Source: Azolla caroliniana
Taxonomy: Eukaryota; Plantae; Polypodiophyta
Assembly: GCA_043228905.1 (NCBI GenBank)
Contig: JBHGNT010001368.1
Location: forward strand, 1 to 9,346
Direction: 5' to 3'
Length of the DNA stretch: 9,346 nt
Below, piece by piece: positions 1 through 9,345 of the stretch. Position 1 is the stretch's first letter. Every line of letters begins with the position of its first letter. Below the pieces are notes generated by a model. It saw nothing but the letters and a program-made list of their open reading frames with translations, ran no database searches and had not been told where the DNA came from. The position numbers were made by a program, and so were the translations under genes.

Positions 1-390
1 AGTCTCTAGAATTAGTGGGCAGGAATTCTCGGTATTATCGTCCTCCATTGTTTCACCCATAGCCACCTTCTCGACTATCTCTCTGTCGTATGCATTGGCT
101 TTGACCTTCGTTTTCTCTTCGTGACCTTCCGTCTCTTCGGTCTCACGTTGCTTTTCGAACGCAACTGCTGAAATCTCTAGAATTAGTGTTGGGAGAGTCT
201 TGCCTCGGCCATCCGCCATTGGCTCATCCATAGCCACCCTCTTGACTATTTCTCCATCACATGCATCGACGTCAATTTTTGTTTCCTCTCTGCCACCTTC
301 TGTCTCTTTGGTCTCACGTTGGGTCTTAGATGCAACTGCCGAAGTCTCTAGAATTAGTGGGAAGGAATCCTTGGTATTACCATCCTCCAT
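1..390 (-). repeat. 171-bp (57-codon) degenerate tandem repeat, at least 2.3 copies, inside the gag-like ORF
   Basis: TCTCTAGAATTAGTG recurs at 3, 174 and 345 (period 171), and the intervening sequence aligns without gaps. Confidence 0.9.
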
Positions 391-1189
391 CGAATCATCC
401 TTAGCCTCCTTCACCTCGATGTCGTTATCCGTGGCTATCTCTTCAACTCTATAGGCTTCACACTCTTTGCCCTCCTCAATCATGCAAGCATCGATTATGG
501 TTACCCCTTTTTCACTCGATGCTTTCGACACTCGTGTCCCGAAACCTTCTTCCACTCTTGAAATGGTGTTCGCCACTCTCAAGTCATCGGCCATATCCTT
601 GGCTATCATTCTTTCACAAGACAAGAGGATATCTTGTTCCACAACCTCTCCCGTAGTACCATCATATTGTATTTCAGCCTTCATATCGGTCACATCATTC
701 ATTTTCAATTGATCATCCCTCATGAACCATGTTGATGCCAACCAGATTCTCGTCTTCCTCTTATCATGTCTTCGGAATATTCTTTCAACTTCGGCCCATT
801 CCATTTGCACCGTTATCGTCTTCAAGTTTGATCCTGATGTCCATCCTTCCTTTCCAATCGATCAATCTTACGAACATTAGGACTTTATCTACCCCCACCA
901 ATCGTTGTTCCCGCTCCAAGAGTTGAGCAAAATGATACTCAAACTCTAGGAATGCTTGTGTCGCGCTTTGGTGGATCTTCGCCGATGCCACCCACTGGTC
1001 AAACTCGCGTCGATCTCGTCCCTTCGGTCTCTCATAGTCATATGCCTCTCATAAAGCTTCTTCAAAGGACCCCCATGTCGGGTTTTGTTGTCGTATCTTG
1101 TGGATTCTCTCTTGTAGCTTATATGTGGCCACCCGATTAAAGGATATCACTTGCAATCCTTCCGGTATCCCGCATCGCATCATCTCTGC
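1..1189 (-). pseudogene. gag: gag-like ORF of family A, 3' part (one stop, one frameshift, long acidic extension running off the window)
   Basis: Reads EMMRCGIPEGLQVISFNRVATYKLQERIHKIRQQNPTWGSFEEAL*EAYDYERPKGRDRREFDQWVASAKIHQSATQAFLEFE... with the stop at 1049-1051. After a frameshift near 800 it reads MEWAEVERIFRRHDK...PLILET with no stop down to base 1. Confidence 0.75.
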
Positions 1190-1731
1190 TGTCGTGCCTT
1201 TCGGCTCCGGATCGTTGCGTGAGTCGGGTGGGAACCACAGAGGTCTTGGACTAGGAGAAAGAAGTTCGTGAGATAGAGATTAATTATAAGTAAATAGCAA
1301 AGAGAAAGATAAGAAACTCGTGAATCACACGAGTATACTATATTAATTGGTACTTAGGGTGTTAAGAGAGAAGTAGATGTATAAATCGTGAATCCCACGA
1401 ATAATTTTTGTATTGATTAATACATAATCCAAATAATCAACAACCATATACATATTTCTCTCCTCCTTATATAAAGATGGAAGAGCTAAGCATGGCTTCA
1501 TGCTTTTTTTTTACAAAAAGTGTTCATGTCCACTAAATGTGCATGTGATGCTTTTTTTATTTCCTAAGTATAGGGCTCATGCACGCTAGATGTGCATGAG
1601 TTATTTTTAGTGTCTCGTGTTTTTCTTTTCTTTTCTTTTTCATATATTAAAAAATACACGATTTACCTTTTAATAAAGGTATGCATAAATAAAGGTCTTA
1701 TACCTATTAAATCTATATTTAAAACACTTAA

Positions 1732-1803
1732 GATAAGTTAATGTAATGGTAAGGTTGGGGTTTGTCAACGTGGAGGTGCAAAGTTCGAATCATGCCCTGC
1801 GCA
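1732..1803 (+). promoter_or_regulatory. tRNA-like (Pol III A-box/B-box) cassette in U3 of the solo LTR, antisense to the element
   Basis: A-box-like TAATGTAATGG at 1739-1749 and B-box core GTTCGAATC at 1783-1791, at tRNA spacing (44 nt). GGAGGT sits in the variable-loop position and a T5 run follows at 1819-1823. Confidence 0.55.
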
Positions 1804-1853
1804 ATAGTGAGTATTTCCTTTTTCTTTTTACATTTATGTCTCTTTATCCGGCT

Positions 1854-1927
1854 CTTCCTTGCCGGTATGCCGTTTTCTTCCTTGCCGGTATGCCGTTTTC
1901 CTCCTTGCCGGTATGCCGTTTTCTTCC
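1854..1927. repeat. 23-bp tandem repeat x3.2 in U3 of the solo LTR
   Basis: CTTCCTTGCCGGTATGCCGTTTT at 1854, 1877 and 1900 (one mismatch in the third copy), plus CTTCC. Confidence 0.95.
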
Positions 1928-2007
1928 GGATTTCACCGAGCACTCCATTCTCTATCCGGAGGGACAAAAATATTATTTCCACATAGTGTGCAACCTACAC
2001 TACGACA

Positions 2008-2176
2008 CCGCTTTGTAGTCACGTAGATAGCATGACGCATCCTTTCTGTTGAATTGTCCATTTCATTCTACGAGCTGCTTTACTACCGCCGTGATCTCCG
2101 ACATCACTTGTTGTTCATGTAGCATCTGCTCGAACATCATCATCATCGTGCTCATCGTCTCTTGTTGATTCTCCAT
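2008..2176 (-). pseudogene. gag: gag-like ORF of family A, 5' part
   Basis: ATG at 2176, 17 nt past the PBS: MENQQETMSTMMMMFEQMLHEQQVMSEITAVVKQLVE*NGQFNRKDASCYLRDYKA. It joins the 3' part in frame once the solo LTR and one TSD copy are removed. Confidence 0.75.
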
Positions 2177-2192
2177 CTCCTTGTCACCCGTC

Positions 2193-2210
2193 TTCACGTC
2201 GGGTTCACCA
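2193..2210 (-). promoter_or_regulatory. Primer-binding site complementary to the tRNA-Trp 3' end (copy 1)
   Basis: TGGTGAACCCGACGTGAA follows the LTR end after a 4-nt gap (CATT). The plus strand TTCACGTCGGGTTCACCA matches the 3' 18 nt of plant cytosolic tRNA-Trp(CCA) as I recall it. Confidence 0.85.
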
Positions 2211-2214
2211 AATG

Positions 2215-2329
2215 TGTCGTGCCTTTCAGCGCTAGATCGTTGCGTGAGTCGGGTGGGAACCACTAGGGTTTTGGACTAGGAGGAAGAATTTGAGACGAGT
2301 CTAGTTATGAATAGATTATTAGAAAGAGA
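2215..2329 (-). mobile_element. U5-end fragment of a family A LTR (part of a duplicated block)
   Basis: Nearly identical to 3173-3290. Similarity stops abruptly after AGAAAGAGA at 2329. Confidence 0.9.
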
Positions 2330-3137
2330 ACAGGTTCCTCCGGATGGGAAGGGAGTAGATCAATGCCGATGAACAAACTCGGCCGAGGCCGAAGACCGGA
2401 TGAGGTGGACCCGGCCACGGAGAGCCGGATGATGCAGACCCGGTGAAGACCGGATGAGGAGTACCTGGCTACGGAGAGCCGGATGATGCAGATCCGGTGA
2501 AGACCGGATGAGGAGAACTTGGCTACGGAGAGCCGGATGATACAGACCCGGTGTGAACCGGATGAGGAGTACCCGGCTACGGAGAGCCGGATGGTGCAGG
2601 CCCGGTATGAACCGGATGAGGAGTACTCGGCTACAGAGAGCCGGATGGTGCAGGCCCGGTATGAACCGGATGAGGAGACATATTCATAAATATGTTTCTG
2701 AGAGCCTATCGAGGCTACATTTGTAAATAGCCAAAAAGTCATATTAGTATAAATATGACTTAGGGCAAAAACTTTTGGTTACTGTTGTTGTCATTTTTTT
2801 TTTCTTGTTGGTGCAAGAAGAAGAGAGAGTGCGTAACTGTACAGAGAGAGAGTGAGAGACGAGGTCGTTGCCTCTGTTGTAACCGCCGCCTGTGGCGAAG
2901 ATCGTGAGTCCAAGGTCGTTGCCTCCGTGAACTCACTGTTTTGTACATTCATACATAGCGACAGTTTGCAGCCTGTGGGCTGCCGTGGTATTTTCCCCTA
3001 GTTTGGGGTTTTTTCCACGTTAACCTCCTGTGTATCTTTCTCCTCTTTGTGTCGTGTTCTATTTCCCGTTTTCTGTGTATGAAAAGAATCTCGGTTGTGG
3101 CCGAGCGTTGCGCATAAGGAGCTAGGAGTTCCCGACA
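2330..3137 (+). mobile_element. 5'-truncated Ty1/copia LTR (family B)
   Basis: Ends ...GTTCCCGACA at 3137 and has TATAAATA at 2748-2755. The CCGTGGTATTTTCCC...GGGGTTTTTTCCACGTTAA motif resembles Tnt1/Tork-like LTRs. It is collinear with the reverse complement of the LTR at 8501-9209, which is linked to a copia RNase H. There is no 5' TG end. Confidence 0.85.
2391..2677 (+). repeat. 54-bp CCGG-rich tandem repeat x5.3 upstream of the TATA box of the copia LTR
   Basis: Units start at 2391, 2445, 2499, 2553, 2607 and 2661. Approximate consensus is GAAGACCGGATGAGGAGTACCCGGCTACGGAGAGCCGGATGATGCAGACCCGGT. Confidence 0.95.
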
Positions 3138-3150
3138 CTTGTCACCTGTC

Positions 3151-3168
3151 TTCACGTCGGGTTCACCA
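3151..3168 (-). promoter_or_regulatory. tRNA-Trp primer-binding site (copy 2)
   Basis: The same 18-mer as 2193-2210, again 4 nt from the LTR end at 3173. Confidence 0.85.
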
Positions 3169-3172
3169 AATG

Positions 3173-4026
3173 TGTCGTGCCTTTCAGCGCTAGATCGTTG
3201 CGTGAGTCAGGTGGGAACCACTGGGGTTTTGGACTAGGAGGAGGAAGAATTTGAGACGAGTCTAGTTATGAATAGATTATTAGAAAGAGAGATAGAAACT
3301 TGTGAATCCCACAAGTATAGTTGTTTTAGTTTATCTTAATCGTAGTAATAAATTGAAATAGTTTAGAATAGTTTAGAATAGATTAGAGTAGATTGAGAAA
3401 AGAGATCAAAACTTGTGAATCCCACAAGTATTATATTAATCAATACTTATGTAAGAATATGAATGTAGATTGAAAGAGAAGGATATAAAAACCTCGTGAA
3501 TTCCACGAGTATAGTTTATGTCGTGAATCCCACGAATATAATTTATTAATTTGTGTTTTTAGAAATATATCCAATTTCCAAAGTTTTCACACCCCTATTA
3601 CATTATGCTCCCCATCCTTATATAGTGATGAGAGAGTCTTAGCAATCCATGCTTTTTTTTTCTAACTATGGACTCCATGCTTTCTCTATCTATAGACTAT
3701 ATGCTTTCTCTAACATGCGTTTTTTATTGACTATAGTGTTTATGCACGTTAGATGTGCATGTGTAACTTTTTTCTATCATGCGTTTTTCTTCTAGTTGAA
3801 GCTTTTTCTTAGAAAAAAAACCTTTCTATGTGGAATATTTGCTTTTCTAACACTCATGATGTGTTAGTGTGATGGTAAGGTGTTAAATTATTAATATGGA
3901 GGTATAAGGTTTGAATCTTGCCCTATGCATGTAATATTTATTGTCATATTTTCTTCGTTTTCTTCATATTTATTAAATCGAGTACTTTGTACATTTTTGA
4001 CGTAGTGTATGAAATACACTACGACA
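3173..4026 (-). mobile_element. Complete 5' LTR of the family A element (854 bp)
   Basis: TGTCGTG at 3173 to CACTACGACA at 4026, followed on the minus strand by the PBS. TATATAA lies on the minus strand at 3624-3618. The predicted TSD is ACGG (4027-4030). Confidence 0.92.
3858..3929 (+). promoter_or_regulatory. tRNA-like A-box/B-box cassette in U3 of the second family A LTR
   Basis: TAGTGTGATGG at 3865-3875 and GGTTTGAATCT at 3908-3918 (C>T at the CpG), with the same 44-nt spacing as in the solo LTR. Confidence 0.5.
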
Positions 4027-5107: not shown

Positions 5108-5365
5108 TCTCTCTCTCTTTTCTTTTTTTTAAACTATACTCCATTAGTATTAAAATTAAAGTGGCCAAAGGCAAGATACAAGATAATCCAACATTACAAT
5201 GAATATTGTGTAGACATGTTAACTGACTGTAGCCAATCTTTCTAGATAAAGATAAATAAATTTTTCTGCTAGCCAATCTTATTCATATTCAGAATCCAAG
5301 AATAATGTTTCATCCAAACAACCCCTTTCCTTCAATCTTAGCATGTGTCATAGACATATGCCAAG

Positions 5366-5437
5366 GAGGAAGGTAGGGATTTAACCCAAGACCTCATGGT
5401 CTCTATTGGGTAACCCTACCCATTGAGCTACCTATGC
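5366..5437 (-). promoter_or_regulatory. tRNA-like cassette (A-box, D-arm, variable loop, T-arm) in U3 of LTR C, antisense to the element
   Basis: The minus strand reads GCATAGG TA GCTC AATGGGTA GGGT ... GAGGTC TTGGG TTAAAT CCCTA CCT. The A-box TAGCTCAATGG (5430-5420) is canonical, the B-box lacks one C and the anticodon arm does not pair. Confidence 0.65.
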
Positions 5438-5505
5438 ATCCTTGTACCATATCCAGCTTCATGTAGTGTAGATTGAACATTGGAAGTTTCTAGCTTGCAC
5501 ACACT

Positions 5506-5600
5506 CTCATGCATTGTCTATTGCATGCATCCTCATGCATTGTCTATTGCATGCATCCTCATGTGTTCTCCATTGTGTGCATCCTCATGCATACTCTATT
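5506..5600. repeat. 26-bp tandem repeat x3.6 in U3 of LTR C
   Basis: CTCATGCATTGTCTATTGCATGCATC is identical at 5506 and 5532, with diverged copies at 5558 and 5584. Confidence 0.93.
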
Positions 5601-5765
5601 TCTAGCTGGCTTACATAGCCCTACCTTCTTGTATAAATACCCTTGATTCTAATCAAGGTGAACAACACCAGTTACAGATTCTATAAGTTGAGTTCTTGTT
5701 CTTTTCCTCTCTCTTGTGTTCTGGTCTTGTCTTCTCTTTGCTCTATTATACTTGTCCGTGATAGT

Positions 5766-5775
5766 TTGTTCACCT
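5766..5775 (+). promoter_or_regulatory. Putative self-priming PBS of element C
   Basis: TTGTTCACCT begins after a 2-nt gap from the LTR end and is the exact reverse complement of AGGTGAACAA at 5656-5665, 24 nt downstream of the start of the TATA box. Confidence 0.75.
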
Positions 5776-5791
5776 GCCTCTTCTTGCTACC

Positions 5792-8500: not shown

Positions 8501-8812
8501 TGTGAGGAATAGCACGGAATATTGCTCGGCCACAACTGAGTCTTGAATCACTTTGTTTAAGGATCAAACACAGAAATGGGAATAGAGATGAATACTCGTA
8601 CACACACGAGTCGATAGAGAGTACACAGGATGTTTACGTGGAAAACCCTAATAGGGAAAAACCACGGGAGCCCATAGACTCCGAACTATCACTATATGAG
8701 AAAGGTACAATCAGAGACTCGGAGGCAATGACCTCGAGCTCTATTTCTTCGCCAAGCGACGGTTACAACTAAAACGGTTCTGTATCTCACTCTATCTCTC
8801 TCTCTCTCTCTC

Positions 8813-9209
8813 TCTCTTTGTCACTCGCTCTATACAACAATTATACATACAACAATATGACAACATTCTAGTAAAGTGATTGCCCTAATTCATATTTATA
8901 CTTATATGAACTTAGGGCTATTTACAAATATAGCCTCAATAGGCTTACTCAAAACATATTTACAAATGTCTTCTCTTCCAGTTCTCACCGGGTCCATCCG
9001 ATCCGGTTTCTGGATCGCTTCCGGTTCTCACCGGGTCGTAATCATTCATAACCGGATCTCTTTGTCACTCGCTCTATACAACAGTTATACATACAACAAT
9101 ATGACAACATTCTATTAAAGTGATTGCCCTAATTCATATTTATACATATATGAACTTAGGGCTATTTACAAATATAGCCTGAATAGGCTTACTCAAAACA
9201 TATTTACAA
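8813..9209. repeat. 153-bp direct repeat (8813-8965 and 9057-9209) covering the copia LTR core promoter
   Basis: Ungapped at offset 244 with 4 mismatches. Confidence 0.95.
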
Positions 9210-9345
9210 GGTGGATGGCACTTTGACTGTCGAACTAGAGCCAGTATTCCTCATGTTGGATCCCTAGCTCTCCGATGAAGTCCTTCATCTAGATTATCTC
9301 CTTGCCGGCTTGCACAATTGCCATTTACTCCGCCGCCGTGGTTGA
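9207..9345 (-). pseudogene. pol: Ty1/copia RNase H fragment
   Basis: STTAAE*MAIVQAGKEII*MKDFIGELGIQHEEYWL*FDSQSAIHL matches the copia STTEAEY...DSQSAIHLAKN signature, with three stops. Confidence 0.92.

What the first reader, a model, noticed from the sequence alone, without database searches (positions are those of the whole stretch)
1732..3929. Family A LTRs also carry an antisense tRNA-like A/B-box cassette in U3, conserved in two diverged copies
Seen: the solo LTR has TAATGTAATGGTAAGG...GGAGGTGCAAAGTTCGAATCATGCCC (1739-1797) and the 5' LTR has TAGTGTGATGGTAAGG...GGAGGTATAAGGTTTGAATCTTGCCC (3865-3923). Box spacing is 44 nt in both. The boxes are conserved, while the anticodon-arm region and the U3 just beyond differ strongly. 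T-runs follow at 1819-1823 and 3949-3952. Inference: this pattern suggests selection on TFIIIC sites rather than on an RNA fold. With LTR C, two otherwise dissimilar families share one architecture: a tDNA mimic upstream of, and divergent from, the Pol II TATA box. It could be a convergent barrier or anti-silencing module. TTGTCAA at 1762-1768 weakly hints at a tRNA-Asp origin.
Basis: partly seen in the sequence, partly recalled or inferred. Interest (0 to 1): 0.8.

Follow-up and report, generated by a model that had tools for sequence, protein, structure and literature searches.

The report
Backward tRNA promoter in retrotransposon LTRs
Many families of protein-coding jumping genes in this plant genome carry a conserved, backward-facing copy of a tRNA-gene promoter near the outer edge of their end-repeats, and young copies of one family mutate there on one strand only, so it is likely switched on and likely keeps the element's own promoter open inside silenced chromatin.

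Summary
Confirmed, and wider than reported. Family A is an autonomous Phygy-type Gypsy element. Its antisense A/B-box cassette is in 50 of 52 complete LTRs sampled by primer site; boxes and spacing are fixed across three subfamily groups while the spacer is not. A tight pattern hits 12,731 times against 42 controls. The cassette is antisense in U3 in Phygy-type and Tcn1-type families (48 of 59 integrase-anchored loci, 1 sense); 16 Copia LTRs lack it. tRNA stems and a terminator are not conserved; the tRNA-Asp hint is unsupported. In 33 young LTR pairs, 26 of 82 differences fall in the 72-bp cassette, 20 C>T against 4 G>A on its own strand, as expected for a transcribed Pol III unit. A second family repeats this only partly; ten further pairs not at all. 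Best reading (0.5): an active outward-facing Pol III promoter that keeps the Pol II promoter open. Binding, RNA and barrier function are untested. Closest known: Helenus TRIMs, which are non-autonomous. The scan noted antisense tRNA-like pieces in single Gypsy families of other genomes; my five look-ups returned no note of this U3 cassette.

The parts
1190..2007 (-). Solo LTR of family A, young subfamily A1, inserted in a gag-like region of an older A-like element
   Evidence: Termini and 4-bp NCGN target duplications of other solo copies; 491 exact hits of an A1 LTR-start motif
1732..1803 (+). tRNA-derived cassette, antisense in U3 (A box 1739-1750, conserved block 1771-1777, B box 1783-1791)
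   Evidence: strand-biased C>T hotspot in LTR pairs
1467..1473 (-). TATA-like box of LTR A1 (inferred Pol II promoter), about 270 bp from the A box
   Evidence: Conserved between A1 and A2, position
2193..2210 (-). tRNA-Trp primer-binding site of the older A-like element; truncated 5' LTR at 2215-2329
   Evidence: Complementary to the 3' end of genomic tRNA-Trp genes
3151..3168 (-). tRNA-Trp primer-binding site following LTR A2
3173..4026 (-). 5' LTR of family A, older subfamily A2
   Evidence: Followed by the PBS; relatives at 81-89% identity
3858..3929 (+). Second antisense cassette (A box 3865-3876, B box 3909-3917 with C>T at the CpG)
3618..3624 (-). TATA-like box of LTR A2
5346..5763 (+). 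5' LTR of family C, Tcn1-type Gypsy, predicted self-priming
   Evidence: PBS region 5765-5776 complementary to 5656-5665; gag 47% identical to a chromodomain-bearing family
5366..5437 (-). Antisense cassette of LTR C
   Evidence: 21.5 bits, 0 of 200 resamples; seen in most of 30 family C loci
5632..5639 (+). TATA box of LTR C; inferred transcription start near 5656
   Evidence: Sequence and self-priming complement
2330..3134 (+). LTR B, Copia-type, no cassette (negative control; second copy about 8560-9210 on minus)
   Evidence: A relative precedes a Met-type PBS and a Copia gag-integrase ORF in L250; scores at resample level

Best explanation
These Gypsy LTRs carry a conserved tRNA-derived A/B-box cassette, antisense in U3, that is likely an active outward-facing RNA polymerase III promoter and likely serves to keep the element's own Pol II promoter open inside heterochromatin. 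Shown: presence, fixed orientation, tRNA-like spacing, position between the LTR's outer end and the TATA box, loss of the cloverleaf, no conserved terminator, and strand-biased C>T mutation in young family A1 copies. Inferred: TFIIIC binds the boxes and loads TFIIIB on the inner, TATA-facing side; Pol III opens the DNA and reads outward, exposing the cassette strand to deamination; the RNA is a by-product; the bound complex forms a nucleosome-poor edge that resists silencing from flanking repeats, so 5' LTRs with intact boxes found more daughter copies. My split: about 0.75 that it is an active Pol III unit, about 0.65 that the benefit is chromatin opening if so.
For: Cassette in 50 of 52 complete family A LTRs sampled by primer site; between three subfamily groups A-box core 8 of 8 sites fixed, 1771-1777 7 of 7, B box 8 of 9, spacer 6 of 18, downstream 2 of 17. 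12,731 pattern hits vs 42 reversed-pattern controls. Antisense to gag-pol in 10 of 10 elements with LTR pair and ORF. Integrase-anchored Tcn1-type loci: 48 of 59 antisense above the 99th resample percentile, 1 of 59 sense. Stems pair no better than swapped halves across 20 cassette clusters (outer T stem 0.48 vs 0.52, anticodon 0.43 vs 0.45, acceptor 0.50 vs 0.50) while real tRNAs pair 0.94-1.0. 33 young A1 LTR pairs: 26 of 82 differences in 70 of 761 sites (p about 1e-8), C>T 20 at 10 C sites vs G>A 4 at 23 G sites (p about 8e-8), 12 in 5' and 14 in 3' LTRs; elsewhere 16 C>T vs 13 G>A; in symmetric CG/CHG contexts 22 vs 2, 17 of 33 elements contributing. Family F, 37 pairs: C>T 25/597 vs G>A 12/629 in the cassette and 19/173 vs 3/102 in the 45 bp upstream. 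Elevated transition rates at active tRNA loci: PMC6130373 (passages). Pol III-dependent tDNA barrier: PMC2040200 (passages).
Against: No binding, chromatin or RNA data. In family F the cassette is not a rate hotspot (21.6 per 1000 vs 8-28 elsewhere) and U5 also shows C>T excess on that strand (CG context 17/177 vs 4/136). Ten further pairs from other families show nothing (C/T 4/162, G/A 5/206), though they were picked on intact cassettes. Strand-biased methylation could give the same skew (recalled, untested). The 5' half of the A box is degenerate in many families, and 18 of 31 copies in the A2 group carry the B-box C>T change, spread over several branches, so that base is not strictly required. 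The fission-yeast tDNA barrier works in either orientation, so a barrier alone does not explain the fixed orientation. Copia families thrive here without it. Upstream TATA-like (15 of 20 vs 8 of 20 control) and CAA (8 vs 4 of 20) signals are weak against rising AT content. PMC6130373 reports both C>T and G>A excess, not a one-strand skew.
Confidence: 0.5

Rival explanations
1. TFIIIC-only boundary (B-box/ETC type): the factor binds and blocks or tethers chromatin, with no Pol III transcription.
For: B box is the best-kept part across families and the 5' half of the A box is often lost; no conserved terminator; B-box barriers without Pol III exist in fission yeast (PMC2040200 passages).
Against: 3' half of the A box and A-B spacing are kept; orientation is fixed; the one-strand C>T skew in A1 suggests strand opening.
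Confidence: 0.13
2. The antisense RNA is the functional product: it would dampen the element's own activity, decoy small-RNA silencing, or read from the 3' LTR into the purine tract and the end of pol.
For: Fixed antisense orientation and the mutation skew that suggests transcription.
Against: Neither fold nor length or terminator is conserved: T4 lies 12-26 nt after the cassette in family A, 295 nt in H, and is absent from the LTR in F and I.
Confidence: 0.12
3. Divergent activator: TFIIIC-loaded TBP/TFIIIB helps the Pol II TATA promoter directly, whatever the chromatin context (as recalled for oppositely oriented tRNA-like boxes upstream of trypanosome snRNA genes; that paper could not be read).
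For: Explains the fixed orientation, because TFIIIB would land on the TATA side; families D and G add a second, sense cassette 3' of the promoter region, so both face away from it.
Against: A-box-to-TATA distance varies from about 120 to 270 bp, too loose for direct contact.
Confidence: 0.12
4. RNA-level role: the genomic RNA carries the complement of tRNA D- and T-loops in U3 and pairs with the primer tRNA to aid strand transfer (recalled for HIV-1 U3-R and the Ty3 bipartite primer site; papers not read).
For: Family A shares 7 D-loop letters and part of the T arm with its primer tRNA-Trp; antisense orientation is what pairing needs.
Against: Tcn1-type families self-prime (10-12 nt LTR complement) yet carry the cassette; Trp-primed D and G have different box letters; Trp is not the best match among the tRNAs compared.
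Confidence: 0.05
5. Neutral relic of an old SINE or tRNA insertion copied along with the LTR.
For: Origin by such an insertion is plausible (proposed for Helenus, PMC10886601); copies lacking it exist (L204, L433).
Against: Boxes persist while spacers and flanks are unalignable across 20 clusters with two or more members and two lineages.
Confidence: 0.04
6. Landing pad for elements that integrate at Pol III start sites (lead from earlier finding e1-10420559).
For: The window is a nest of elements; a few old copies break in or near the cassette (L044, L049, L050, L074).
Against: No insertion pile-up upstream of the cassette among 102 loci examined (28 A2, 28 C, 46 A1); family A targets NCGN.
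Confidence: 0.04

Closest known systems
Helenus / TRIMp3 (Kojima 2024, PMC10886601; main text parts 1-4 of 6 and keyword passages read, figures and supplements not seen)
   Same: tRNA-derived sequence inside an LTR, conservation at boxes A and B, no functional tRNA fold.
   Different: Helenus elements are non-coding, 311-1263 bp, and the boxes are proposed to make the template RNA. Here they sit in 5-8 kb gag-pol elements with a TATA box, antisense and upstream of the start. The paper expects autonomous partners to rely on Pol II; it notes that 'not a few' Repbase LTRs hold tRNA-like pieces but analysed only TRIMs under 1000 bp.
Cassandra TRIM (5S-derived promoter in LTR; as described in PMC10886601)
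   Same: Small-RNA-gene promoter kept in LTRs over long times.
   Different: 5S type, drives the element's own transcript, non-autonomous.
tDNA and B-box chromatin barriers of fission yeast (PMC2040200, passages read)
   Same: A/B boxes at the edge of a domain that must stay open next to heterochromatin (proposed here).
   Different: Host tRNA genes or B-box clusters, orientation-independent; here a degenerate mimic carried by mobile elements with fixed orientation; function untested.
Phygy and Tcn1 lineages of plant Ty3/gypsy (Neumann 2019, PMC6317226; passages and supplement rows read)
   Same: Family A: 4-bp NCGN duplication, tRNA-Trp primer site, no chromodomain. Families C, F, I, J, K: self-priming and/or chromodomain.
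   Different: The passages read there, in PMC2864245 and in PMC7466625 mention no tRNA-like LTR cassette.
Plant tRNA-derived SINEs (recalled)
   Same: 3' half of A box plus B box at tRNA spacing is the pattern recalled for their promoters.
   Different: No own target duplication or tail seen; fixed place in LTRs.

Membership tests
Helenus (TRIMp3) | tRNA-derived sequence with conserved A and B boxes in the LTR | tested here: met
Helenus (TRIMp3) | Non-autonomous, short (up to about 1.3 kb), no coding region | tested here: not met
   7.3-kb family A copies with gag-protease and pol frames
Helenus (TRIMp3) | Pol III boxes placed to transcribe the element's template RNA | tested here: not met
   Antisense and upstream of TATA/start; exception: extra sense cassette in D and G
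Phygy (non-chromovirus Ty3/gypsy) | 4-bp NCGN target duplication | tested here: met
   8 of 8 other solo A1 copies; the window's solo copy has one mismatch; reference row
Phygy (non-chromovirus Ty3/gypsy) | tRNA-Trp primer-binding site; no chromodomain | tested here: met
Phygy (non-chromovirus Ty3/gypsy) | RT/RH/INT phylogenetic placement with reference Phygy elements | not tested
   No reference set fetched; length 7.3 kb is just under the reported 7.66-9.97 kb
Tcn1 chromovirus (families C, F, I) | Self-priming site complementary to the transcript start | tested here: met
   10-12 nt complements 24-36 nt after TATA
Tcn1 chromovirus (families C, F, I) | Chromodomain on integrase | tested here: met
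   F, I, J, K; not checked for the window's broken family C copy
Functional tRNA gene | Cloverleaf with paired stems | tested here: not met
   ARAGORN 0 genes, Rfam no tRNA hit, stems at control level, folds
Type 2 Pol III promoter | A and B boxes at tRNA spacing | tested here: met
   21-34 bits in 9 LTRs of 8 families, within the range of real tRNA genes
Type 2 Pol III promoter | Upstream TATA-like/CAA elements and a T-run terminator | tested here: inconclusive
Type 2 Pol III promoter | TFIIIC/Pol III occupancy and an RNA product | not testable with these tools
   No RNA holder listed; only indirect mutation skew
tDNA chromatin barrier | Blocks heterochromatin spread in a box-dependent way | not testable with these tools
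   Needs reporter or chromatin data

The most novel reading that the evidence does not exclude
Two distant lineages of autonomous Gypsy retrotransposons have each built a host-type Pol III transcription unit into U3 as a portable insulator: every insertion brings its own outward-firing tDNA barrier, which lets heterochromatin-dwelling elements stay active and seeds the genome with over ten thousand TFIIIC sites, likely far more than its tRNA genes.
Probability: 0.4. Interest if true: 0.88.

Novelty: new variant of a known kind. Interest (0 to 1): 0.74.

Why it matters
How LTR elements that live in heterochromatin keep a promoter active is an open question. A conserved, orientation-fixed Pol III module across two Gypsy lineages gives a precise target: a few B-box bases in an LTR reporter. 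tDNA barriers are established in yeasts; a plant mobile version would be new to me, and my searches found no description. At 12,731 exact matches it could shape TFIIIC distribution and confuse tRNA/SINE annotation in such genomes. The LTR-pair mutation skew may also serve as a sequence-only readout of Pol III activity.

Tried and rejected
ARAGORN and Rfam on the window: no tRNA. Sequencing runs: no RNA holder listed; the four runs are assembled contigs and say nothing on expression. Viral contigs: no relatives. Two scripts had errors and were redone: wrong spacer length and a matrix built from one tRNA; the real-tRNA terminator distances were faulty and are not used; information-content peaks are circular and not used. 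tRNA-Asp and tRNA-Trp origin: no isotype stands out among the 17 ARAGORN classes compared (set incomplete, partly organellar, one class a false call). Insertion pile-up near the cassette: not seen. Ten extra LTR pairs gave no mutation skew. Two Copia LTRs scored 14.5 and 13.2 bits (1 and 3 of 200 resamples), below all Gypsy cassettes tested by LTR (21+); the second has a negative B-box score. Three papers could not be read, so the trypanosome and HIV-1 comparisons are recalled. Helenus figures and supplements were not seen and may state orientation or list longer LTRs. No protein homologue search, tree, structure or complex job was run.
Full report
Setting. The window is a whole 9.3-kb contig of a 523-Mb genome and is nearly identical to a stretch of contig C15. 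It is a nest of LTR elements. Family A lies on the minus strand: a solo LTR (1190-2007), a 5' LTR (3173-4026) followed by a primer site, and a truncated LTR with a second primer site. Full-length copies are 7.3 kb with gag-protease and pol frames, RT, RNase H and integrase and no chromodomain. Solo copies show 4-bp NCGN duplications and the primer site matches genomic tRNA-Trp. These are the marks listed for the Phygy lineage (PMC6317226, passages and supplement row); tree placement was not tested. Family C (LTR 5346-5763) has a primer-site region complementary to 5656-5665, 24 nt after its TATA box, the self-priming layout of Tcn1-type chromoviruses; this also places its cassette in U3. That paper reports Phygy in a moss and Tcn1 in mosses and club-mosses, so the host is likely a non-seed plant (inference).

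Observation. All quoted coordinates are right. A loose A..B pattern also hits 5 unrelated places in the window, so I scored with a matrix made only from real tRNA genes found in this genome: 21.0, 24.5 and 21.5 bits for the three window cassettes, 0 of 200 resamples reaching them, real tRNA.7-36.3.

Conservation in family A. I sampled 70 of the first 100 listed (of 1,048) Trp primer-site junctions: 59 family A, 10 family D, 1 family E. Of 52 family A LTRs with both ends, 50 carry the cassette at fixed spacing; one is deleted and one degenerate. Between three subfamily groups (18, 31, 24 copies, the second topped up) fixed sites were: A-box core 8 of 8, 1771-1777 7 of 7, B box 8 of 9, spacer 6 of 18, 5' half of the A box 2 of 6, downstream 2 of 17; neighbouring blocks 1721-1738 (11 of 18) and 1792-1803 (8 of 12) are also kept. 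B-box variants in the 50: canonical CG 27, C>T 10, G>A 10, others 3. The anticodon-position triplet differs among subfamilies, so the Asp hint is unsupported.

Breadth. A tight pattern gives 12,731 exact hits against 42 for the reversed control; about 8 of the first 100 look like true tRNA genes by eye. Of 20 regions fetched around hits, 10 elements had an LTR pair and a gag or pol frame, and the cassette was antisense in all 10; one more was rearranged. They include chromodomain-bearing families (F, I, K) and Trp-primed ones (G, H); RT-RNase H identity between the lineages is 28%. As a test independent of the cassette I fetched 77 metagenome loci by integrase-chromodomain peptides, dropped 18 without a usable LTR start, and found 48 of 59 antisense and 1 of 59 sense above the 99th resample percentile, with the B box 19-71 nt from the LTR end. 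Their hosts are unknown and some may be the same species as G000. Families D and G have two antisense cassettes in most copies shown and one sense cassette 3' of the promoter region. Of 20 Copia regions, 17 gave LTR pairs and 16 were scored: best 14.5 bits; the window's LTR B, also Copia-type, scores at background.

DNA signal, not RNA fold. Over 20 cassette clusters with two or more members (of 47), only the pairs inside the B box are kept; outer T stem, anticodon and acceptor stems pair at control level, real tRNAs at 0.94-1.0. Window cassettes fold no better than shuffles for A1 and A2 (z -0.14, -0.89); C forms a non-cloverleaf hairpin (z -2.28). A terminator is not conserved. A-box-to-TATA distance is about 120-270 bp.

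A trace of activity. The two LTRs of an element are identical at insertion, so their differences are later mutations. From 119 young A1 LTRs I formed 33 pairs (7 candidate pairs dropped for a missing partner). Of 82 differences, 26 fall in the cassette (11.3 per 1000 site-pairs against 2.5 elsewhere, p about 1e-8). They are 20 C>T at 10 C sites against 4 G>A at 23 G sites on the cassette strand, split 12 and 14 between 5' and 3' LTRs; outside, 16 C>T and 13 G>A. In symmetric CG/CHG contexts the count is 22 against 2, from 17 of 33 elements. Symmetric methylation would not give this skew; events during reverse transcription would not hit both LTRs separately; Pol II transcription would expose the other strand (inference). 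Exposure of the non-template strand of an outward Pol III unit fits, and active tRNA loci are mutation-prone (PMC6130373, passages, which reports both transition classes). Against: in 37 family F pairs the cassette is no rate hotspot, the skew is about twofold in the cassette and about fourfold just upstream, reverses towards the TATA box, and appears again in U5; ten pairs chosen on intact cassettes show nothing; strand-biased methylation is an untested rival. In the A2 group 18 of 31 copies have the B-box C>T change on several branches; this may reflect the same hypermutation, or parents whose 3' LTR was mutated, but it shows the base is not indispensable.

Mechanism. I favour an active, outward-facing type 2 Pol III promoter whose bound complex keeps U3 and the TATA region open against silencing from flanking repeats (0.5). 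In fission yeast a tDNA barrier needs TFIIIC and Pol III and works in either orientation (PMC2040200, passages); the fixed orientation here therefore needs an extra reason, such as TFIIIB landing on the promoter side (inference). Chromodomain elements are thought to insert into heterochromatin (PMC7466625, passage), which would make such a module useful. Rivals and odds are listed separately. No RNA or chromatin data were available.

Known and new. The nearest described case is Helenus: tRNA-like boxes in LTRs of short non-coding elements, proposed as their promoter (PMC10886601, parts 1-4 of 6 and passages). This case fails that family's non-autonomous criterion and its orientation logic. Seven searches of an open-access library found no report of an antisense U3 cassette in autonomous plant Gypsy elements; subscription papers and Repbase notes were not searchable, and the Helenus paper says tRNA-like pieces occur in many Repbase LTRs. 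Earlier notes of this scan describe antisense tRNA-like pieces in single Gypsy families of other genomes and an LTR-borne unit with insertions in front of it; look-ups by place, words and sequence returned no note of this cassette. Verdict: real, conserved, lineage-wide; new variant of a known kind; interest 0.74.

Noticed in passing
L203, L110, L125, L238 (families D and G): LTRs with antisense cassettes in U3 (a tandem pair 136-166 bp apart in most) plus a sense cassette about 90-110 bp 3' of the TATA box in D, so that cassettes face away from the promoter on both sides.
   Followed up: partly
window 1480-1600, 3640-3790, 5495-5600; families D, E, G, H: CATGCA/TGCATG (RY-like; label recalled) motifs occur 2-8 times per LTR, seen mostly between cassette and TATA; family F has none.
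   Followed up: no
L177: Family A LTR in which the cassette reads in the sense direction, apparently through an internal inversion.
   Followed up: no
L204, L433: Family A LTRs with the cassette region deleted; in L433 the deletion runs between two T-runs.
   Followed up: no
L247:7558-8567: Tandem array of family C-like cassette units about 170-230 bp apart, beside a 105-bp satellite.
   Followed up: no
L243: Chromodomain element with part of its LTR duplicated in inverted orientation.
   Followed up: no
window 1-861 (minus): Open frame with 171-bp acidic repeats downstream of a gag-like piece, in the A-like element that received the solo LTR; no Pfam hit.
   Followed up: no
window 2215-2330: Truncated family A LTR joined directly to Copia-type LTR B, which lacks its first bases; looks like a deletion junction.
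   Followed up: no
G000 C8:17.80-17.82 Mb, C16:4.99-5.11 Mb, C5:10.11 Mb and C5:17.99 Mb: Tandem clusters of tRNA-Trp-type matches and of tRNA-Lys/Asn genes; Trp is the primer of the abundant Phygy-type families.
   Followed up: no
window contig vs G000 C15:11.797-11.806 Mb: The window contig nearly duplicates a chromosome-scale stretch, probably an alternative haplotype or redundant contig.
   Followed up: partly
young A1 LTRs outside about 1600-1810: CpG sites outside the cassette region are almost unmutated (0-2 changes in 119 copies), while those at 1616-1800 carry 7-40.
   Followed up: partly
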